Origin: a virus
Taxonomy: Duplodnaviria > Caudoviricetes
Virus record (IMG/VR): IMGVR_UViG_3300021426_000077
Location: 36,428-100,427 of that record
Reading direction: 5' to 3' (one strand)
Length of the DNA stretch: 64,000 bases
The translations under genes and the position numbers were made by a program. Shown here one piece after another: positions 48,413 through 64,000 of the stretch. The stretch's first letter is position 1; every line of letters begins with the position of its first letter. A model generated the notes under the pieces. That model did no database searches and was not told where the DNA came from. It saw only the letters and a list, made by a program, of their open reading frames with translations.

Positions 48413-49609
48413 TTACTTAGCCTTGAAATTCCAAACAGGGTACATATGAGCTATAATATCTGCATTAGGATGAATTGCCTGGATGATCGCCTCCGCATCC
48501 TTATATGCCATAGGAGCCTCATCGAGAGTCTCCTCGACTACAGAAGAAGAAGCAATACCATCCATTGCATTCTGAAAATCCTTAAGAGTCAACTGATTGC
48601 GGGCCTGCCCTCGCGACATGACACGACCAGCACCATGCGGCAATGAGCAGTTCCAATCCTCATTTCCAAGAGAACGAACAATGAGAATTCCATCGCGCAT
48701 ATTCAGAGGGATAAGACCAATCTGACCCTTATATCCCTCAATAGCGCCCTTGCGGATAATGTGATGATCAACATCTACATAGTTATGAATACAAGTAATC
48801 TTCTGCGGATCAAATGCCCATCCCATATACTTAGCAACCTCACGATAGATTGCCATATGAGAGCGATAAGAAAACTCGTTGCAAATCTTCATATCATGGA
48901 GATAGTGCTCCATATCTTCACCCTCAAGATAGCAAAGATCATCCGCAGGCTCAGCCGCAATTATCTCACGGCAAAGCTCAATCCATCCCTGGATACGATC
49001 AACACGATTAATTGCGCGAAGCGCTGCAATTCCCATCTTCTGATGAAGTCGATGCTGTTCTATACGCTCATTGCGACGATCGATTGCAATCTGCTGATAA
49101 TACTCAGCAATCTGCTTTCCAAGGTTGCGGGATCCGCAATGAATTACAAACCAATACTGATTATACTCAGAATTATAATCAAGCTCGAGATAGTGATTTC
49201 CACCACCAAGAGTTCCCATAGACTTGCGGAGACGATCATGATTCTGCAGGTAGTCCCAGCAGTAAAGATCCTCATATGGAAAATCTACAGAAAGCTCATG
49301 CTCAACAGAACGAACATCAAAGCCAGTCGGGATATACTCTCGACAAACCTGATCCAGATACTCGCAATCAATATTATCAGAGTTAACAAGAAAAGCAGAC
49401 ACACGGCAAGCAATATCTACGCCTACGGTGCCAGGAACAATCTTATCCTTAAACTCAATGGTCGAGCCAACAACCGCACCCTTCCCCGCATGAGCATCAG
49501 GCATGATGCGAATCTTAGAATCTCGATACGCAGGAGAATTAGCAAATGCGTCAATCTGCTCAATGGTAACAAGGTCATTACCAACCATAAAGTTCTTAAG
49601 ATCAGCCAT
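48413..49609 (-). CDS. rtcB: RtcB RNA ligase
   Basis: IMPDAHAGKG, VGVDIAC, GTLGGGNHYLE, HCGSRNLG, HNY, RKGA, SLPHGAGR, LDEAPMAYK. Confidence 0.96.
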   Translation of the reverse strand: MADLKNFMVGNDLVTIEQIDAFANSPAYRDSKIRIMPDAHAGKGAVVGSTIEFKDKIVPGTVGVDIACRVSAFLVNSDNIDCEYLDQVCREYIPTGFDVRSVEHELSVDFPYEDLYCWDYLQNHDRLRKSMGTLGGGNHYLELDYNSEYNQYWFVIHCGSRNLGKQIAEYYQQIAIDRRNERIEQHRLHQKMGIAALRAINRVDRIQGWIELCREIIAAEPADDLCYLEGEDMEHYLHDMKICNEFSYRSHMAIYREVAKYMGWAFDPQKITCIHNYVDVDHHIIRKGAIEGYKGQIGLIPLNMRDGILIVRSLGNEDWNCSLPHGAGRVMSRGQARNQLTLKDFQNAMDGIASSSVVEETLDEAPMAYKDAEAIIQAIHPNADIIAHMYPVWNFKAK

Positions 49610-50209
49610 AATTCTCCCTCTTTTCTCATTTTCTTTAATTATATTATAACATAAAAAAAGAGCTTCTGTCAATAATTATCTTACCGACAAAAGCTCTACA
49701 ATTTAAAGATCAAGTTTATGAATAATATCTTCGTAAGTAAAATGATTATCAATCATATCTTTAATGTGAGGAATTTTACCTTGACTGTAGTAATCATTAT
49801 ACTTATCCCAAACCTTTGTAGTATCATTGAGACTATATCGTCCAGGGATTGGAACTGCATACCCCGCAGAGCCGTCACTTTCGGGAAAAAGCTGATAAAG
49901 CTGACGATTTTGCTTAATTGCATACTTCATTTTCATTTATTTTCCTTCCTATATGTGACGTTTAATTAGCTTCTGGTAGAAGATTACTTGGACTTCCATC
50001 ATACTGACTAATTGTAAATCCTTGCGGAAAACGCAACTTAATAATTACTTCAGTATTTGCCGATGCAGGAAATTGACATATATCTTCATCTTCCCTATAG
50101 ATTTCAATTTCAGATATTGCGCCAGAGTAAGCCTGATAAGTTTCATCTGAACCATCTGAAAAAGCTACTGCAACAATTGCATCTCTTACTCTCTTAAATT
50201 TCTTCATAC

Positions 50210-50773
50210 TTATCTCCATTGGCGACAATATTCATAAAGAACAATTCCACTTGCTACACTTACATTAAGAGATCGTACTGATCCAATATTTTTAATATAA
50301 ATCATACTATCACATAGATCAATATCAGATTTAGAAAGTCCTGCATTTTCTTCTCCAAAGACGAACGCACTCTTTTTTGGAAATGAAACATCCATTATAT
50401 TAATTGGATTGTATTCCATAATATTATCAACTGCATACACTATATATCCAAGAGAATGAAGATGATTAATTACTTCTTCAATAGTATCTGCATGATATAC
50501 GTTTTCAAAATGATTTGTTCCTACACAAGCTCGACTATCATATTTGCGGCGCCCGCAAATGTAAATTTCCTTACCTAGAAAAGCATTATTGCTTCTAATT
50601 GAACAAGCAATATTAATATTATAAGAAATATTTTGAAAAACCATAACAGCATCGTTACGATTTTCTTGAAGATCAGCTCTAATATCTGCGGTCTGCCATT
50701 GATGATAATAATCAATTACATTAGAACGATTAGACTGAATTGTGTCATTAGCATAACGATACTTTTCTATCAT
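50210..50773 (-). CDS. SPOUT (TrmH/SpoU-family) RNA 2'-O-methyltransferase
   Basis: NIACSIRSNNAF, FVFGEENAGLS, GSVRSLNVSVASGIVLYE. Confidence 0.9.
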   Translation of the reverse strand: MIEKYRYANDTIQSNRSNVIDYYHQWQTADIRADLQENRNDAVMVFQNISYNINIACSIRSNNAFLGKEIYICGRRKYDSRACVGTNHFENVYHADTIEEVINHLHSLGYIVYAVDNIMEYNPINIMDVSFPKKSAFVFGEENAGLSKSDIDLCDSMIYIKNIGSVRSLNVSVASGIVLYEYCRQWR

Positions 50774-55242: not shown

Positions 55243-55263
55243 GCAGAAGATACTCGATATACT

Positions 55264-55340
55264 TGGAGATAACGAGAATCGAACTCGTGTCCAGGCATTT
55301 TCACTTTGGCTTTCAATGCCTGTCGAACCCATCTATCCCC
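55264..55340 (-). ncRNA. mini-tmRNA (tRNA-like domain only)
   Basis: GGGGATA...TTCGAC AGGCATT-loop-AATGCCT GGAC ACGAGTTCGATTCTCGT TATCTCC A; G3:U70 pair. Confidence 0.75.
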
Positions 55341-56532: not shown

Positions 56533-56542
56533 ATTTATATAG

Positions 56543-56672
56543 TCGCGGATATATTTAAAACAGTATAATATCGTGCTCTACCTTTGAGCTAAGTAAACAT
56601 TTGTTTACTATTGGATTCGAACCAATAACATCGCCTTTAATCAGAGGAAGTAACTGTTTTACCATCACGCAA
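56543..56672 (-). ncRNA. YrlA-like RNA with circularly permuted tRNA domain
   Basis: T-arm, then loop-closed acceptor AGTAAAC-AAAT-GTTTACT, then D-arm, inside a TGAT..TACTTC terminal stem. Confidence 0.7.
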
Positions 56673-56675
56673 TAA

Positions 56676-57005
56676 TTAACTTATATATTTATTACCATCT
56701 CGTTTTCAAGTTATTTTAGGAGTTAGATTTATAGGTTCTTTTTGATAATCTTCTCTTCATAGCTTATTACTTAAATCTTTAAGAGCTTTTTTAGTTTCTG
56801 GCCCAAGAGGAAAACCATCTAAATCTTCCCATAATTTCTCAATATCTCGATCTTTAGAATGAAAATATCTATCTATGATTCCCGCATAATCATCATACAT
56901 AATTTCTAGAATTCCAATAGGAACCCAAATATTTTGATCTGCGGCTTCCATATCTTCAATTTCATGGATGATCATTATAAAATTATTCTTAGAAAATTTA
57001 GCCAA
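56676..57005 (-). CDS. hypothetical protein (TGA=Trp)
   Basis: Reads through two TGA to TAA at 56676. Confidence 0.55.
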
Positions 57006-57055
57006 ATCTACCTCCTTAAAAAAAAATAAGCCAAAGTAGATTTGGCTATTCTATT

Positions 57056-57718
57056 TTAATCTGTAGCATATTTTCATTCATACCCGTATGCAGTATGACG
57101 CTGATTTTGATTTTTACAAACTCTACCAATGCAAATACTAATATTATTAAGCTGACCTGTTGAGATTTTTTGATCATAAACCCATTGAGCAGCTTCTCTT
57201 TGAGAATTAAAACTTTTTATTATTTGCCCGTTTTTTAAAGCAATAACCTTTTTAGAATTTCTTTTATGAGCATTAATTTGTGTATTTTTAATACCAGAAT
57301 TTAATAATACTCTATGAACAGTATCAGAATCACATTCAAAAACATTACAAATTTCTTTAATTAATTTTCCTTGAGAAAACAAATCAATCATTTTTTGATA
57401 ATCTTCTAAAGAATAAGTCATTCTTCCATCTCCGCCTGGAGTGGCATTATACCCTTTAGAATAACTCCCATAATAATTTATTCAATAAATTTCTCTATCT
57501 GAAAGAATTGAAATATCGCATTCTTCAATTAATTCTATATAAAAATGTTCTGAACCATATTTATTAATTGCTCGATACAAAGGTCTATGTTCATAATCTC
57601 GTCTAGGAGCATCTTTAAGATGTTCTTTAAAACGATCTTCTATCGTAGGTAATAAAGTTTTACCAATATAAACCTTATCATTAATATCATTTTTTATGAT
57701 ATAAATTTTTCCAATCAT
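57056..57718 (-). CDS. GIY-YIG homing endonuclease with NUMOD1-like domain (TGA=Trp)
   Basis: GKIYIIKN...VYIGKT...RFKEH...REIYW*I...GYNATPGGDG...TAYGYEW*KY. Confidence 0.9.
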
Positions 57719-57819
57719 AAAATTTACCTGCCAATCTTTAATATTTTTCTTTATTTTAAATAAAAATTGGCAGGTTTTTATAATAAAAACTTGCCCAATT
57801 TTGGCAAGTTTGCCAAATT

Positions 57820-57911
57820 CACGCCCTGAAGGATTCGAACCCTCACCCGAGGTTTTGGAGGCCTCTACCCAGGTTTTGAAGACCTGTGTGCTACCATTAC
57901 ACTAAGGACGT
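57820..57911 (-). tRNA. tRNA-Trp with UCA (opal-reading) anticodon arm plus a second CCA anticodon arm
   Basis: ACGTCCT TA GTGT AATGGTA GCAC A CAGGT-CTTCAAA-ACCTG GGTA GAGGC-CTCCAAA-ACCTC GGGT GAGGG-TTCGAAT-CCTTC AGGGCGT G. Confidence 0.85.
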
Positions 57912-57914
57912 ATA

Positions 57915-57990
57915 TGGTCGCGAGATGCTGGTGTTGCTCCAGCTTTCTCCGGCTTATGAGACCGGATCAGATACTGACCTGCCATCCGCA
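57915..57990 (-). tRNA. tRNA-Met(CAT), atypical
   Basis: CCGGT-CTCATAA-GCCGG; T-loop AGCAACA; CCA end. Confidence 0.7.
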
Positions 57991-57993
57991 ATA

Positions 57994-58069
57994 TGGTAGC
58001 GTGTACCAGATTTGAACTGGTGATCACTGGCTTGAAAGGCCAGGGTCCTTACCGCTAGACGAACACGCC
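57994..58069 (-). tRNA. tRNA-Glu(TTC)
   Basis: CTGGC-CTTTCAA-GCCAG; CCA end. Confidence 0.92.
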
Positions 58070-58077
58070 ATATAATT

Positions 58078-58482
58078 TAATGTGGAAATTTTGTGTATTC
58101 TAAAATTATGCGACCCCGTAAAAAAATATCGCATATATATATTATAAAATAAGGGAGAGGTACACGAATCTAACATGTAAGAGGAGGAACTCTAGAAAGG
58201 AGAACAACAGATCCGCTTTATTATTCTTTCTTTAAGACTTAGGAAGTAAGAACACACCCATCACACATTATTAAAATCAAAAGGAGCGTGCGGAAATACT
58301 TAATTTAGTTTTTGCTATACCAAGCAATAAAAAGGCGGTATTAATATTTTTCATGAATATTTGAAGTAACTAAATTACAATCACGCACTTTAAATTTTAG
58401 AGGAAATTTTAGAAAACGTAGATTTTGCATTATCACCAACATAATATTATGATTTTGAAGTAACGTTTTCTCTATCACTCTA
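58078..58482 (-). ncRNA. three tandem TGAT/TACTTC-motif RNAs (58398-58482, 58288-58388, 58078-58270)
   Basis: Same covarying terminal stems as 56543-56672; preceded by a TTGACA/TATAAT promoter at 58487-58516. Confidence 0.7.
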
Positions 58483-58521
58483 TTTATATTATAACAAAAT
58501 ATTTCTATTTTGTCAAATATT

Positions 58522-58689: not shown

Positions 58690-59791
58690 AACTGCGGCGG
58701 AGCGAGTCACCGCAGTAGAATTCTGTGTTTTCGGGTACACAGCAACCGCCCTTCCTCGGGGATAAGGTAGTGCTCTAAGTCACAATCATGGGCATCACAC
58801 CCTTCTTGTCAAGTGGTTTAATTTAATAAAATTAAAGCTTTAGACAATCAATTGCTACCAACTCCTTTTCAAAGAATTAAGCACCTATACCTATGACCTT
58901 AGAGAATTAGTTTAAATCCAGGTTCACCACGTGGAGGTTTCTCTATGAACCCATACGCTTTCTTTTGGTATCCTCATGCGGGATCACCTAGGGCAAGAAA
59001 GCTTAACTAGCCCTGACCTTGGGGATTTCCGGACTCCCGCAAGGAACCTTTATTCAGGTTTATTTTCCATCGCCCTGTTACGATGCGGTCATTTTTTTTT
59101 AAAGACGAGAAAGCCCCGTGTAAGAAAACTCGTCTATACGTTGCATCACCAATATCCTTTCTGGCACCATACCCGCTCTCGGGTAGGGGCGGACTCGAAC
59201 CACCAATGTATAGCAACGAGACACTACTGAGATCACGGATAAGGCGTAGCGTCCACACTCCTTAGCGACTCCATTTTTTTATTTTTAGTCCTTTGTCGCG
59301 CTCGGACTGACTTTGGTTTTACTTCCCACGTCAAAAGAAGGAGCTTTGGTCAGAAGCTCATAAAAACGACCTGCTAGCTAACATCATGCACCTGTTTTAG
59401 CTTAAAGGTTCTGCGCGGTAAGCATGATTTCCGCAGACGCCATCTGATTCCCTCAGTGAGTATAGATAAAATGCCCCACCAGCAATGTCGTCTTTCTTTT
59501 TTAGCTTAAAGTCTGAGGAAACAGGTTAATACTCAGACTTAGAAGTGATTTTAAAGACCTACGCTTCTCACGGTCTCAAAGGTGATATTATAGACCTACG
59601 CCTTCAACGGTCTTAATTGGCTTAGCAACTTTCTGTGCTGGTCCAGTCGTATCGTTCTATCCAGCCGCCGTTTCCGAAGGTAGCTACTCCTTCATCTGGA
59701 ACTGCTTATATGGGGACACGGATTTGTACCCCATACCTATATCGTAGGTGTTGCGTCTCTCAGAGAATTTCCGCGGTTACTCTGAGTCCCC
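58690..59791 (-). ncRNA. candidate large or multiple structured ncRNA(s)
   Basis: No credible ORF; elevated GC; many hairpins including a GTTCGAGT T-arm; strong promoter at 59828-59857. Confidence 0.55.
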
Positions 59792-60419
59792 TATTGCCAA
59801 TTTATTCTTTTTTCATTTTCTATATATATTATAACATATTTTATTGTCTCTTGTCAAGAACTTTTTTCTAGCTTTGATTATCTGTGTTTAGAAGATAATC
59901 ACCACCTTTCCTTGACTTTCTTTAATTATATTATAACATATTTTTTATTCTATTGTCAATCTTTATTTTTTGGATCAGATTGCCCTTCTTGTGAGACGAA
60001 AAGAAGATACCTGCGGCGCTTGATCCCCGCTCACTTTACTAGAATATTTATCGTCTACTAGTCTAGACTAGATGCCTTTCACATCAGATATTTCCTAAGA
60101 AGTCTCTCAACTTCTTTAATTATATTATAACATAAAATTATAACATATGTCAAATATAATTTTTTGTCTAATTGAAAATATAATATTTATCTAAGGTTTC
60201 TGGCGCTAGCATTGTGCCAATTTTTTCTATAGTATCTTTATTCATTACAAATAGATCATCTGTAAACATAGCAGATAAATCTTTAATCCATCTTTTTTCA
60301 TTAAAAGTACAATTTGGATGTCTTAAATTTTGCTTAAAACAATAATCAAATATATATTGTTGTTTTGCTATATTAAGAAGATTATCTACATCTTGAACAC
60401 TTAAATTACTCATAATAAA

Positions 60420-60866
60420 TTAAGCGATGACATGCTTAAAAAGTGGAGCAAGATCGTCTCCCCATACACTCTTAAAAGAATTAATTTTATCTAGAAGCTC
60501 TGAATAACGCTTATCTGAAAAATTAACCTTATAATCATCATCATTAGTTGCAGAGGTACAATAAACATCTTCTTTCTCGTATTTCTTTAGCCTATTCTCA
60601 AGATCAGTATTGCGAGCAGTTAGATTCTGAACTTGAGTAGTTAGATCATCAATCTTCTTAGTCATAACAGTAAGATCATCTTCTTGATCAGCTTCTGCAA
60701 AAGCCTCTTCAAGTTGATCTGCAATATCTTCTAGAACATCAGATAGATCTTGTCCAGTAGAATAAGCTCCAATATCTTTACCATCACTATCTTTATAAAG
60801 AAGCTCGAGCTCAATCTTTCCATTTTCATCACTTGAAAAAGTTGAATTAATACTTGCACTATACAT
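60420..60866 (-). CDS. coiled-coil hypothetical protein
   Basis: ORF track. Confidence 0.65.
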   Translation of the reverse strand: MYSASINSTFSSDENGKIELELLYKDSDGKDIGAYSTGQDLSDVLEDIADQLEEAFAEADQEDDLTVMTKKIDDLTTQVQNLTARNTDLENRLKKYEKEDVYCTSATNDDDYKVNFSDKRYSELLDKINSFKSVWGDDLAPLFKHVIA

Positions 60867-60872
60867 TTTAAC

Positions 60873-61694
60873 CTACTTTCTTTTCTGAGCCGCAAATTCA
60901 TTCTCTTTCTTATAAAGAATTTGCGCAATTTCTAAAAATTGAACACATTTTTTACATACGGATCCTTCTGCACATTTATACCCGCAATTCATCCTATATG
61001 CAATAAAATAAGGTAATAGATATTGATTTGGAATAAATATTTCTAGTAAAGGATATAGATAATTTAAACTATCTCTCCATTCCTTTTTTTCAAACCAAAT
61101 TCTATAAAGAGTATTTAAACGAGCTTTAGATGTATTTTCTGAAAATTCAAAAATATCAACATATTTAGCTAATTCCTCAATTACCTCTGGAACAAAATAA
61201 GGTGCTTTAGGATCATTATTTGCATTTTCTTTAAAAGAATTAACCCTATCCAAGAGAAGACGTAATTGAACATTATTTGTATGACAAATATTATGGACTT
61301 TCTCTAATTGATAACATAAATCATCTGCAATATATACATCTGATACGCCCATCTCAATTAAAGCTTCTAATTCACGAAAGTTAGTTGCGGCAAAATTAAA
61401 AGGAAAATAAAAACTAATATTTAAATTCTTTAAAATTTGTATATTTTCTAAGTATGGCTTTATCACAATATGAATATTAGGATTAATATCTTTTGCTCGT
61501 TTTAGTTCTTTTAAATCAAAGATATAATCATTTAAATCTTCATCAATTATAATATTAAATCTTTCAGTATTATGTTCTTGAAGAAAAATCAATAAAGAAT
61601 CAAATTTATCTTTTCTTGTATTTTGAAAAAAGATATTATATTCCCATGTATCTTGTTTGCGGGTATCAAATGCTCAAGGTAAAGCAATTTTCAT
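60873..61694 (-). CDS. hypothetical protein (one early in-frame TGA)
   Basis: ATG overlapping the upstream TAA; MKIALPW*AFD...; Cys-rich C-terminus. Confidence 0.6.
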
Positions 61695-63493
61695 TAATTA
61701 GAGCCTCCTTTCAAATATTCTAGTAGAGACATTCTCTCACCAAGATCGTCAATTTTCTGTCGAATTTGCTCAGTTCTTTGATCATGAGCATGATTACCAT
61801 TATATTGGAAAATCATTATGTCTCCAACTCTTGAATAATGATAACTATAAAAATCTGGAGTATAACGCCTTAAATTAAGAAAATTAACTCCACCCATTTT
61901 TTCAGATACTCTTTTAATTATAACTTTAGAACCGTATTCCTTTTTTAACTGCGTTATATAATTTAATACATCTTGATCTGAACTATCCCAACTATTAGGA
62001 TAATTATTCTTAATTTCTTCTGCTCTTTTCCATGACAATCCAGTTGTAAAAACAATGGTCTTAGAATAATCTTTAGGAACAATATCTTCTCGTGAAAGAG
62101 CTCGATTAAATTTTGGAAAATAAATCTGATTTGAACAACATTCATCACTACAGAATTTTCCAAAATTGGTACGGTATTTTATATGATAACTAGTAATACC
62201 ACATTCACAACATTGTCTATCATATCGACAATCACCGCATATTAAATCGGAACCAACATCCGCATAATCATAGATATTTTCTCGGCCTGCAATGGGTTTC
62301 CCGCAACAAATGCATGTAGGAGGTCCAGAAAGACAAAGTTTAATACTTTTAGGAACATAATTTCTATAGCAATAATAATATGGAACATGACTTTCTATAA
62401 TATCATTATACATACAATTAGTATATACAAAGATACAATGATGATTCTTTTTCTTGTCATACTCCAAATTAAAAAAATCTCTCATATAAAAATTTCCATC
62501 TAGATTTTTCATATCTTTGTACTCTTGGATTCCAAATTGATAATCCCAATTTAGATTCTTTTTTACAAGCTCTTTTAGAATATCTAGAATTTTAAAAATT
62601 AGATCTTCATTATGATATGGGTATGCCTTTCCACTTAAAAGAATATTTTTATGAACGTAGAAGAGACTTCTCCAGCTTTTATTTGGAATATTATATACTT
62701 CATTTTCATTAATATTTAGTTTAAATGATTGCGGCCCTTCTAGGTACGCGACAATAGCTAGATTACTATTCATCATTTCTAGAGTGCCACTACGATAACA
62801 TCCATTATGACTCCATGACATACAACTTGACCAATTACAAGTATTATCGCTCATAGACATAAAATCAATAGGATGAATGCTAAGAACTAGTTTAGTTTGA
62901 ATTTCGTTTCCAATACTAAGACAATTTACAGCATTGCGCCATTCGTCAAAAGATGCCATATCTGGATAATGAGTAAGATGAAGCATTCTTTGAATTGTTC
63001 TAATGGTTTTCATGCCATTTTTTATGCTACCTTTAAAACTAGTAAAAGTAAATTCACCTGGCTCAGAAATTGTTTCAATATATCCTAAAGAAACATTTTC
63101 ATAATTAAACAATTTACTTAAGTTATAGAGTTCATACTTTGTATAATTTTGATTTGCCCAATAATTCATTACAGAAGAAATAAAACTATTATTCGTTCTT
63201 AGATTTAATGTTTTTGTATCATTTTTAGCAATATTTAGTGCTCTTTCTCCCCACAAAACATACTCATGATAAATTGTAGAAAGTTGCTTACGCATTACAG
63301 AAATATTCTTAGGAATAGAAATTTGCCTTTCTACTCTTAGTTTATTTCCGAGGGCTTTAAATAGCGTTGTTTTATTCTTATTCCAAACAGAAAGCACCTG
63401 CGGCAGAGGGGCACTACGAGTTGCCCCATAAATCTCTAAATAGTATTGAATTGTTTTAATATCTTCATCTGTTAGAGCATCATATGGACGCAT
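61694..63493 (-). CDS. large hypothetical phage protein with Cys motifs
   Basis: LSIHPIDFMSMSDN..WSSCM...GCYRSGT; CxxC clusters. Confidence 0.7.
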   Translation of the reverse strand: MRPYDALTDEDIKTIQYYLEIYGATRSAPLPQVLSVWNKNKTTLFKALGNKLRVERQISIPKNISVMRKQLSTIYHEYVLWGERALNIAKNDTKTLNLRTNNSFISSVMNYWANQNYTKYELYNLSKLFNYENVSLGYIETISEPGEFTFTSFKGSIKNGMKTIRTIQRMLHLTHYPDMASFDEWRNAVNCLSIGNEIQTKLVLSIHPIDFMSMSDNTCNWSSCMSWSHNGCYRSGTLEMMNSNLAIVAYLEGPQSFKLNINENEVYNIPNKSWRSLFYVHKNILLSGKAYPYHNEDLIFKILDILKELVKKNLNWDYQFGIQEYKDMKNLDGNFYMRDFFNLEYDKKKNHHCIFVYTNCMYNDIIESHVPYYYCYRNYVPKSIKLCLSGPPTCICCGKPIAGRENIYDYADVGSDLICGDCRYDRQCCECGITSYHIKYRTNFGKFCSDECCSNQIYFPKFNRALSREDIVPKDYSKTIVFTTGLSWKRAEEIKNNYPNSWDSSDQDVLNYITQLKKEYGSKVIIKRVSEKMGGVNFLNLRRYTPDFYSYHYSRVGDIMIFQYNGNHAHDQRTEQIRQKIDDLGERMSLLEYLKGGSN

Positions 63494-64000
63494 ATCTCAA
63501 CCCCTTTAATAAACATTTAGTTCATCAATCATATCTTTACAAGACTGCGGCAAATATTCATATTTAATTCCCCAATCATCAAGTGCCATAGTCACCGCAT
63601 CAATTGGGACTTCATCATGTCCATATCGAAAGCTAAGTTCGTCAACAATAGACCTAACTTTAATTTCAATATCAGACATATACCAAGAAGCAAAAGCCGC
63701 GCCAGTTTGAATAGGATTAAAAAACATTTTTCTTCCTTTCTTTCTCTTTATATATATTATATCATATTTTATAGTCTAGTGTCAAATAAAATTATTTTAA
63801 TAAAATAAAAACCCCAAGTTAAAAGCTTGGGGTTTAGACAGAAAGGAAAAAGTATCTTAAATATTAACAATAACTGAAATTGTTAATATAAGAGAACAGA
63901 TCAATACCGCTTTCCAATAGACCAATAAATTTAAAGACTTGATCATTTAGAGCGGTAATATAATGGATATTATCAGTAGACCCTAGAATCTGCGTGTGAT

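What the first reader, a model, noticed from the sequence alone, without database searches (positions are those of the whole stretch)
56543..58482. Family of four modular Y-RNA-like ncRNAs sharing a covarying terminal domain; one carries a permuted tRNA
Seen: four RNAs fit [stem]-UGAU-NG-[9-bp stem]-UACUUC-(variable cargo)-[9-bp stem']-A/U-rich..UC-[stem']. The 9-bp stems differ completely yet pair: AGAAAACGT/ACGTTTTCT, TAATTTAGT/ACTAAATTA, GTGTGTTCT/AGAATACAC, TAAAACAGT/ACTGTTTTA. Lengths run from ~85 to ~190 nt. The cargo of 56543-56672 is T-arm, closed acceptor, D-arm, the architecture established for YrlA Y RNAs, which co-occur with Ro60 and RtcB. RtcB is present; no Ro60/TROVE gene is in the window. 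Inference: a common protein-binding handle with swappable effector domains.
Basis: partly seen in the sequence, partly recalled or inferred. Interest (0 to 1): 0.8.

Follow-up and report, generated by a model that had tools for sequence, protein, structure and literature searches.

The report
Four Y RNAs of a phage Ro60
A gut phage that reads TGA as tryptophan carries four small RNA genes in its tRNA operon that share one conserved "handle" but carry different inner parts. They are Y RNAs, the partner RNAs of the ring protein Ro60, whose gene starts at the very edge of the window, so this is a real but only moderately new example of a known RNA-protein system.

Summary
Four minus-strand RNAs share a closing stem, a bulged U, GAUNG, a 9-bp stem and an invariant UACUUC; these are E1 56541-56674, E4 58078-58270, E3 58286-58390 and E2 58396-58484. 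The 5' motif occurs 5 times against 0.04 expected.

In fact window 63867-63998(-) encodes the last 44 residues of a Ro60/TROVE protein cut off by the contig end. A 99.4%-identical metagenome contig continues into a 428-aa open TROVE frame.

A search with the RNA motif alone found three other viral records, and all three encode Ro60. A covariance model of the handle gave 26 hits in 79 viral contigs encoding Ro60 relatives. All 26 lie on the Ro60 strand and many sit directly upstream of the gene, including in Bacillus phage G.

Across 43 distinct handles, 14 of 15 pairs show compensatory changes. E1 aligns over the full Rfam YrlA model at 34.9 bits. That is below the cut-off of 69, as are CcrColossus, phage G and a Gordonia phage (31-42 bits).

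Verdict: these are Y RNAs, one YrlA-type tRNA mimic plus three paralogues. The handle is a variant (GUGAUNG...UACUUC) of the published GNCGAA motif and Rfam misses it at its threshold.

Earlier notes of this scan report similar UACUUC-handle arrays beside Ro60 in at least 22 other genomes. Function in infection is inferred, not shown.

The parts
56541..56674 (-). E1: YrlA-type Y RNA. It has the handle plus a V-like hairpin, T-arm, closed acceptor hairpin and D-arm.
   Evidence: Rfam YrlA 34.9 bits over model positions 1-114. R1 gives 61.7 bits. Fold. Orthologues in L225, L227 and L136 show compensatory changes in stem b and in the closed acceptor.
58396..58484 (-). E2: shortest Y RNA paralogue (about 85 nt), first gene of a transcription unit.
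   Evidence: R1 72.9 bits. Fold. In the L227 orthologue the handle is identical apart from one loop base and one flanking base, while the cargo has a 10-nt deletion.
58286..58390 (-). E3: Y RNA paralogue (about 100 nt) with a two-hairpin cargo.
   Evidence: R1 72.3 bits. Fold. The L227 orthologue is about 90% identical and all of its changes lie in the cargo.
58078..58270 (-). E4: long Y RNA paralogue (about 190 nt). Its cargo has conserved CU-rich blocks containing CCUCC.
   Evidence: It was not in the model seed and is found at 35.6 bits, E 1.3e-6, with filters off. Fold. The L227 orthologue has a G-C to A-U change in stem b and keeps the CU-rich blocks.
58488..58516 (-). Consensus sigma-70 promoter (TTGACA, 17 nt, TG-TATAAT). 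The predicted start coincides with the 5' end of E2.
   Evidence: 12 of 12 match; sequence.
57787..57811 (-). Terminator-like hairpin that closes the unit E2-E3-E4-tRNA-Glu-tRNA-like-tRNA(UCA).
63867..63998 (-). Last 44 codons of the phage Ro60/TROVE gene, cut off by the contig end.
   Evidence: tblastn with three phage TROVE proteins gives 39-55% identity, E down to 3.8e-7. Alignment A1 ends at the same stop. It is 73% identical to the Ro60 end in L220. Contig L226, 99.4% identical, continues into a 428-aa TROVE frame.
48413..49672 (-). RtcB RNA ligase, a candidate functional partner of the RNA-repair theme.
   Evidence: PF01139 200.6 bits.
50210..50773 (-). SpoU-family RNA 2'-O-methyltransferase, context only.
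   Evidence: PF00588 87.1 bits. It is conserved near Ro60 in L140, L141 and L144.

Best explanation
E1-E4 are four paralogous Y RNAs of a phage-encoded Ro60 ribonucleoprotein.

Shown: each RNA closes its 5' and 3' ends into a two-helix handle. The handle has a closing stem, a bulged U, an invariant G-C pair, an asymmetric internal loop (5' AUNG, 3' A-N-N-A-U-N-U) and a 9-bp stem, followed by an invariant single-stranded UACUUC.

Inferred: this handle is the docking site for the outer surface of the Ro60 ring, as in other Y RNAs. The variable interior acts as an adaptor or gate that decides what the ring is tethered to or admits.
- E1 is a permuted tRNA mimic of YrlA type.
- E2 and E3 carry short hairpins.
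- E4 carries a long cargo with conserved CU-rich CCUCC tracts.

Inferred from sequence: E2-E4 are transcribed from their own consensus promoter together with three tRNA-type genes, and are released by tRNA-operon processing. E1 follows a small ORF and precedes four tRNAs.

Inferred from gene content: in a phage that also encodes RtcB, a SpoU methylase, a tRNA set and a mini-tmRNA, the likely role is RNA surveillance or repair, or capture of a host exonuclease such as PNPase, during infection.
For: 1. Motif count is 5 against 0.04 expected, and four of the five have full architecture.
2. Covariation is strong. The 19-sequence seed is 98.2% paired with 14 of 15 pairs compensatory, against about 52% in slid controls. 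The 43 distinct handles give 96.9% and 14 of 15.
3. E4 was found by the model without being in the seed.
4. A scan with the RNA motif alone found true members in three other viral records, and all three encode TROVE+vWA proteins. TROVE was found in only 2 of 401 sampled genomes of the class of a MAG (labelled uncultured Bacilli) that carries a related contig.
5. All 26 model hits in 79 viral contigs encoding Ro60 relatives lie on the Ro60 strand, many within 300 nt upstream. There are six in tandem upstream of Ro60 in L219 and five in Bacillus phage G.
6. There were no hits elsewhere in 7 Mb of three genomes.
7. The phage's own Ro60 is shown. The synteny Ro60-p73-p599-p273 is shared with L220 and, without a detected p73, with L136.
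8. E1 aligns over the full YrlA model at a score like that of known Ro60-encoding phages, two of them cited as carrying Y RNA-like genes (31-42 bits).
9. Orthologues in L227 keep the handles and change the cargo.
10. A perfect promoter sits at the E2 start.
Against: - There are no expression or binding data.
- The published GNCGAAN0-1G motif is not literally present.
- Rfam YrlA scores E1 below its cut-off and does not see E2-E4.
- In this genome the RNAs lie 5.4-7.3 kb from Ro60, beyond the 4-kb criterion of Chen et al.
- Some Ro60 loci lack this handle: CcrColossus, a Gordonia phage and one bacterial contig. The handle is therefore a subgroup feature.
- Two conserved proteins of unknown function (p599, p273) always lie next to Ro60 and could be the real binders.
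Confidence: 0.85

Rival explanations
1. The handle is real and functional but docks a protein other than Ro60. Candidates are the cysteine-rich 599-aa protein or the 273-aa protein that always follow Ro60, or RtcB. On this view Ro60 co-occurs only because it belongs to the same gene module.
For: p599 and p273 are conserved next to Ro60 in at least nine related loci. They have no Pfam or PHROG match. The published Ro60 motif is not literally present.
Against: The handle also sits directly upstream of distant Ro60 genes (23-30% identity: L149, L150, L152, L153 and Bacillus phage G), where p599/p273 homologues were not detected. The handle aligns position by position with the Ro60-binding part of YrlA.
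Confidence: 0.08
2. The elements are cis-acting processing or stability modules of the tRNA operon, such as RNase entry sites or spacers, with no function as free RNAs.
For: They are embedded between tRNAs with 5-15 nt spacers and, apart from the promoter in front of E2, have no promoters or terminators of their own.
Against: Phage tRNA operons in general do not carry them. They track Ro60, not tRNAs, and in L138, L139, L141, L144 and L219 they sit in front of Ro60. An invariant hexamer plus two covarying helices, and a tRNA-mimic cargo, is far more than a processing site needs.
Confidence: 0.05
3. They are DNA-level repeats, either miniature inverted-repeat elements or homing-endonuclease targets, rather than RNA genes.
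For: GIY-YIG homing endonuclease genes sit inside the array and occupy different sites in two 99%-identical contigs.
Against: The copies share only short motifs. The inverted repeats differ in sequence yet stay complementary, including through G-U pairs that work only in RNA. All copies share one orientation with the tRNAs and Ro60.
Confidence: 0.02

Closest known systems
YrlA and YrlB, bacterial and phage Y RNAs bound by Rsr/Ro60 (Chen et al. 2014, PMC4201824; Rfam RF02553)
   Same: - Terminal stem with a conserved asymmetric loop as the protein-binding module.
- One member (E1) has a T-arm, closed acceptor and D-arm in the YrlA order.
- Further paralogues without the tRNA domain, like YrlB.
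- Same strand as Ro60.
- Association with RtcB.
- Two or more Y RNAs per genome.
   Different: - The 5' motif is G-N-G-U-GAU-N-G (bulged U, GAU) instead of GNCGAAN0-1G.
- An invariant UACUUC follows the second helix. I found no relevant paper in one full-text search.
- The Rfam score is half the cut-off.
- The genes are scattered through a tRNA operon 5.4-7.3 kb from Ro60.
- One cargo is about 140 nt long and CU-rich.
Yrl1 and Yrl2 of Thermus phage phiLo with phiRo60 (PMC12135203)
   Same: A phage-encoded Ro60 with two or more Y RNA-like genes upstream on the same strand. That paper proposes hijacking of host PNPase.
   Different: The phiLo RNAs were picked by a CGAA motif. There are two of them, directly upstream of the gene. 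No tRNA-operon embedding or UACUUC is described.
Bacillus phage G locus upstream of gp540 (TROVE); the phage is cited as carrying Y RNA-like genes (PMC12135203 citing Chen 2014)
   Same: The same handle type. Five model hits lie at L224:4072-4736 directly upstream of the TROVE gene, plus a YrlA-type RNA at 2581-2738. All carry CAGUUACUUC, with UGAAGCGG or UGAUGCGG on the 5' strand.
   Different: Its Ro60 is only about 25% identical. It is a jumbo phage of a different lineage, and the record annotates no RNA genes there.
Metazoan Y RNAs (hY1, hY3, hY4, hY5)
   Same: Several paralogues share a Ro60-binding bulged stem and differ in the loop, which includes pyrimidine-rich tracts.
   Different: No sequence relationship was tested here. 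The animal motif differs.

Membership tests
YrlA (Rfam RF02553) | Score at or above the Rfam gathering threshold (69 bits) | tested here: not met
   E1 scores 34.9 bits over the full model, E 1.7e-6 in a 156-nt search. E2-E4 give no hit. Three named phages with Ro60 genes also fail: CcrColossus 42.3, phage G 36.2 and a Gordonia phage 31.5. The first two are cited in PMC12135203 as carrying Y RNA-like genes.
YrlA (Chen et al. 2014) | tRNA-like domain in the order T-arm, closed acceptor stem-loop, D-arm | tested here: met
   E1 only. The alignment to the YrlA structure line is and the fold. The closed acceptor covaries between the window and L227. E2-E4 lack the domain.
YrlA/YrlB (Chen et al. 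2014) | GNCGAAN0-1G motif near the 5' end | tested here: not met
   All four have G-N-G-U-GAU-N-G. The positions align with the motif in the YrlA model, with an inserted U and A to U. Phage G copies carry both U-GAAG and U-GAUG, which suggests a continuous variant.
YrlA (Chen et al. 2014) | Encoded within 4 kb of Ro60 on the same strand | tested here: inconclusive
   The strand is the same. The distance here is 5.4 kb for E2 and 7.2 kb for E1. In relatives the same RNAs lie within 300 nt upstream of Ro60.
Y RNA (general) | Ro60 gene in the same genome | tested here: met
   The C-terminal 44 codons are at 63867-63998(-). A 99.4%-identical contig carries the rest of the TROVE frame.
Y RNA (general) | 5' and 3' ends pair into a long stem with a conserved bulged or looped protein-binding region and a variable interior | tested here: met
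Y RNA (general) | Physically bound by Ro60, with stability dependent on Ro60 | not testable with these tools
   This needs pull-down or gel shift.
tRNA | Cloverleaf with anticodon arm, recognised by tRNA finders | tested here: not met
   ARAGORN calls no tRNA in any of the four. The Rfam tRNA model gives 13.6 bits on E1.
Box C/D (kink-turn) RNA | UGAUGA paired with CUGA to give tandem sheared G-A pairs | tested here: not met
   The 3' strand of the loop is A-N-N-A-U-N-U-C with no GA. Only chance-level snoRNA hits appear, at 15 bits and E above 7.

The most novel reading that the evidence does not exclude
The phage uses one Ro60 ring with a panel of interchangeable adaptor RNAs to act on different RNA targets in the contest over the host's translation apparatus.
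- The tRNA-mimic E1 would recruit tRNA enzymes or PNPase.
- The conserved CCUCC tracts of E4 would address Shine-Dalgarno-like or ribosomal RNA partners.
- In relatives, handles enclose a whole tRNA-Lys(CUU) or an anticodon-arm copy. These could serve as decoys or sensors for anticodon nucleases, coupled to RtcB repair.

The invariant UACUUC would then be a second, undescribed protein contact common to this whole branch of Y RNAs.
Probability: 0.15. Interest if true: 0.8.

Novelty: new variant of a known kind. Interest (0 to 1): 0.5.

Why it matters
Y RNAs are thought to work as modular adaptors for Ro60, but few bacterial or phage examples are characterised. Rfam's single bacterial-type model (YrlA) misses this branch.

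This locus gives four natural variants of one handle with different cargo, plus orthologous sets in relatives that show which parts are under selection. That makes a compact system for testing three things: what the handle contacts, what the invariant UACUUC does, and whether the cargo decides the partner.

It also shows that Ro60 particles are part of the RNA toolkit of TGA-recoded gut phages, alongside RtcB, a SpoU methylase, tRNAs and a mini-tmRNA.

The covariance model built here could seed a new RNA family that would annotate dozens of phage loci.

Tried and rejected
- Megablast of the region against cultured phages gave no match.
- The 167-aa neighbour protein as a probe for relatives in viral contigs found nothing.
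Three cyanophage hits were the HIP1 palindrome. Only 3 loci were true members after a complement filter.
- TROVE by Pfam in the phage's own 100-kb record gave nothing, because only 44 codons are present. It was found later by tblastn.
- ROOL (RF03087) in the own genome gave nothing.
- Rfam at gathering threshold on 16 viral contigs encoding Ro60 relatives gave no YrlA.
- The genome-contig scan with the Ro60 alignment gave only 3 loci.
- The handle model found nothing in CcrColossus, a Gordonia phage or the one other TROVE-bearing contig found in that genome sample (G131).
- The cargoes of E2-E4 have no convincing similarity in the more distant relatives (one borderline 28-nt E2 match, E 0.004). 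They match only L225 and L227.
- A literature search for UACUUC with Y RNA gave only irrelevant papers.
- The supplements of Chen 2014 are not held, so I could not confirm the published phage G coordinates.
- The kink-turn (box C/D) reading and the hammerhead reading of UGAU were considered and dropped, because the partner motifs are absent.

Full report
**What is there**

The window is the right-hand 64 kb of a 100,427-bp IMG/VR virus record, 34% G+C and estimated 72% complete. The phage reads TGA as Trp. A 2,936-aa frame contains 25 TGA codons, and a GIY-YIG gene inside the finding is open only under code 4. All genes and ten tRNAs lie on the minus strand.

On that strand the four elements are E2 58396-58484, E3 58286-58390, E4 58078-58270 and E1 56541-56674. 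Each has the same layout:
- a closing stem of 4-6 bp;
- a bulged U;
- G, AU, N, G;
- a 9-bp stem;
- UACUUC;
- the cargo;
- the complementary 9-mer;
- a 7-nt A/U-rich strand ending in U;
- CC and the closing strand.

The 5' motif occurs five times in the window against 0.04 expected. The fifth copy lies in a coding frame, has no complement and is chance. Single-sequence folds recover both helices in all four.

**Ro60 is present after all**

Pfam TROVE finds nothing in the 100-kb record. I then made an exact-pattern scan of IMG/VR with the RNA motif alone and filtered for a complementary 9-mer. This gave true family members in three other viral records of 72-144 kb, and all three encode a 478-483-aa TROVE protein; two of the three also give sub-threshold vWA matches.

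tblastn with these proteins against the phage's own genome hits its very last bases. Window 63867-63998(-) encodes 44 residues that align with the Ro60 C-termini and end at the same stop.

A metagenome contig (L226) is 99.4% identical to window 59469-64000. It runs 1,154 nt further and carries a 428-aa open frame with a TROVE match of 38.4 bits, 48-52% identical to the other phage Ro60s.

The gene order is Ro60, a 73-aa ORF, a 599-aa ORF, a 273-aa ORF, then the tRNA/RNA array. This order is shared in full with L220, and L136 keeps it except that no 73-aa ORF homologue was detected there.

**The handle is under RNA-level selection and tracks Ro60**

An alignment of 19 handles from five genomes is 98.2% paired, and 14 of 15 pairs show changes on both sides. 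Partners slid by 1-3 columns pair at about 52%.

A covariance model (R1) finds E4, which was left out of the seed, at 35.6 bits.

In 79 viral contigs encoding Ro60 relatives (1.25 Mb) it gives 26 hits at E<0.1. All lie on the Ro60 strand. Many lie within 300 nt upstream of the gene, including next to Ro60s only 23-30% identical to the query and one in a 434-kb contig.

Further support for the link comes from these searches:
- Six copies lie in tandem in front of Ro60 on a contig binned with a MAG labelled uncultured Bacilli.
- Five copies lie in front of the TROVE gene gp540 of Bacillus phage G.
- In 7 Mb of three whole genomes the only hits are that one array.
- TROVE occurs in 2 of 401 sampled genomes of that MAG's class, so the co-occurrence is not a base-rate effect.

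With 43 distinct handles the structure is 96.9% paired and 14 of 15 pairs are compensatory. U8, G9, the G-C pair and UACUUC are invariant or nearly so. These alignments were partly selected or fitted by the structure. However, the 5' motif alone already picks almost only copies that have the complement.

**Relation to YrlA**

E1 aligns with the full Rfam YrlA model (positions 1-114) at 34.9 bits. The closing stem, internal loop, second helix, T-arm, closed acceptor and D-arm all fall in register. The score is below the gathering score of 69.

Three named phages that encode Ro60 are also below it: CcrColossus 42.3, phage G 36.2 and a Gordonia phage 31.5. CcrColossus and phage G are the two cited as carrying Y RNA-like genes. 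None of 16 viral contigs encoding Ro60 relatives reached it either.

The published motif GNCGAAN0-1G (PMC4201824) is replaced here by G-N-G-U-GAU-N-G. Phage G copies carry both U-GAAG and U-GAUG forms, which bridges the two.

UACUUC is present in all copies, including the YrlA-type RNA of phage G. One full-text search for it turned up no relevant paper.

**Orthologues show what is conserved**

L225 (99% identical) and L227 (neighbouring protein 55% identical) carry E2, E3, E4 and E1 in the same order.
- In L227 the E2 handle is identical apart from one loop base and one flanking base, while its cargo has lost 10 nt.
- All E3 changes lie in the cargo.
- E4 changes a G-C to A-U and a G-U to A-U in stem b, and keeps two CU-rich blocks with CCUCC.
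- E1 swaps U-A for A-U in stem b and replaces the whole closed-acceptor hairpin by another hairpin, keeping the T and D arms.

**Expression signals**

A 12-of-12 promoter with an extended -10 ends at 58488, so the predicted start is the first base of the E2 stem. The next terminator-like hairpin is at 57811-57787, after tRNA-Glu, a tRNA-like gene and the UCA tRNA.

E2, E3 and E4 are 5-15 nt apart, so they must be cut out like tRNAs. This is inferred, not shown.

**How it most likely works**

Established knowledge holds that Y RNAs bind the outer face of the Ro60 ring through their stem, and that their variable module gates the ring or tethers it to partners such as PNPase (PMC4201824, PMC12135203).

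By inference, the phage makes one ring protein and at least four adaptors. With RtcB and a SpoU methylase, tRNAs and a mini-tmRNA in the same window, the theme is RNA repair and surveillance during infection.

Which partner each cargo recruits is unknown.

**Novelty**

The kind is known: Ro60 with several Y RNAs, including in phages. The new points are these:
- the handle variant with its invariant hexamer, which Rfam misses;
- the dispersal of the genes through a tRNA operon;
- the range of cargoes.

Earlier notes of this scan describe similar UACUUC-handle arrays beside Ro60 in at least 22 other genomes. I treated these as leads only.

Noticed in passing
window 58690-60165 (-): A 1.4-kb stretch has no convincing ORF. 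It carries three further perfect 12/12 sigma-70 promoters (60153-60124, 59959-59930, 59857-59828). A strong terminator hairpin lies at 58716-58691, just before tRNA-Ile. Blocks 60165-59807 and 58952-58610 are 89-92% identical to L227, while the middle differs in length. Part also matches L220 and L136. There is no Rfam hit, so these are probably more unannotated small or large RNAs.
   Followed up: partly
L136:18139-18797 (IMGVR_UViG_3300031853_000004): A ROOL RNA (RF03087, 284 bits) lies directly after four Y RNA genes in the tRNA array of a complete 143.5-kb relative. No ROOL was found in the window's own genome.
   Followed up: partly
L136:17153-17263: In that relative one handle (R1 68 bits) encloses a complete cloverleaf, which ARAGORN calls tRNA-Lys(CUU) and Rfam scores as tRNA at 51.7 bits. 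Another relative (L122:1494-1581) shows an anticodon-arm look-alike with the same CUCUUAA loop. So the cargo can be a whole tRNA or an anticodon arm.
   Followed up: partly
window 57913-57993 (-): An 81-nt tRNA-like gene lies between the UCA tRNA and tRNA-Glu. It folds as a cloverleaf with anticodon loop CUCAUAA (CAU), a non-canonical T loop and an encoded CCA end. ARAGORN misses it. Its best Rfam hit is the Tymovirus tRNA-like element at 32.3 bits, below the cut-off.
   Followed up: partly
window 57056-57718 (-) and L225:3828-4472: A GIY-YIG homing endonuclease gene sits inside the array in the window but is absent from the 99%-identical contig L225. L225 instead has a different GIY-YIG gene between tRNA-Leu and the E2 promoter. 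These are mobile endonuclease genes hopping within the tRNA/Y RNA operon.
   Followed up: partly
window 58078-58270 (-), cargo of E4: Two CU-rich blocks (GUUCUCCUUUCU and AGUUCCUCC) are conserved with L227 while their flanks are not. They contain CCUCC, the anti-Shine-Dalgarno core, so they could pair with purine-rich leaders or mimic the 16S rRNA tail.
   Followed up: no
window 60873-63493 (-): A cysteine-rich 599-aa protein and a 273-aa protein with no Pfam or PHROG match follow Ro60 in this phage and in at least nine relatives. They may belong to the same functional module.
   Followed up: partly
window 57819-57912 (-): A 94-nt tRNA with anticodon UCA, which ARAGORN calls SeC, is the likely TGA-reading tRNA of this recoded phage. 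It is co-transcribed with E2-E4 according to the promoter and terminator scan.
   Followed up: no
window 55263-55340 (-): A 78-nt match to the tRNA-like ends of tmRNA (RF00023, 56.8 bits) with the whole middle deleted. It is a mini-tmRNA gene in the same array.
   Followed up: no
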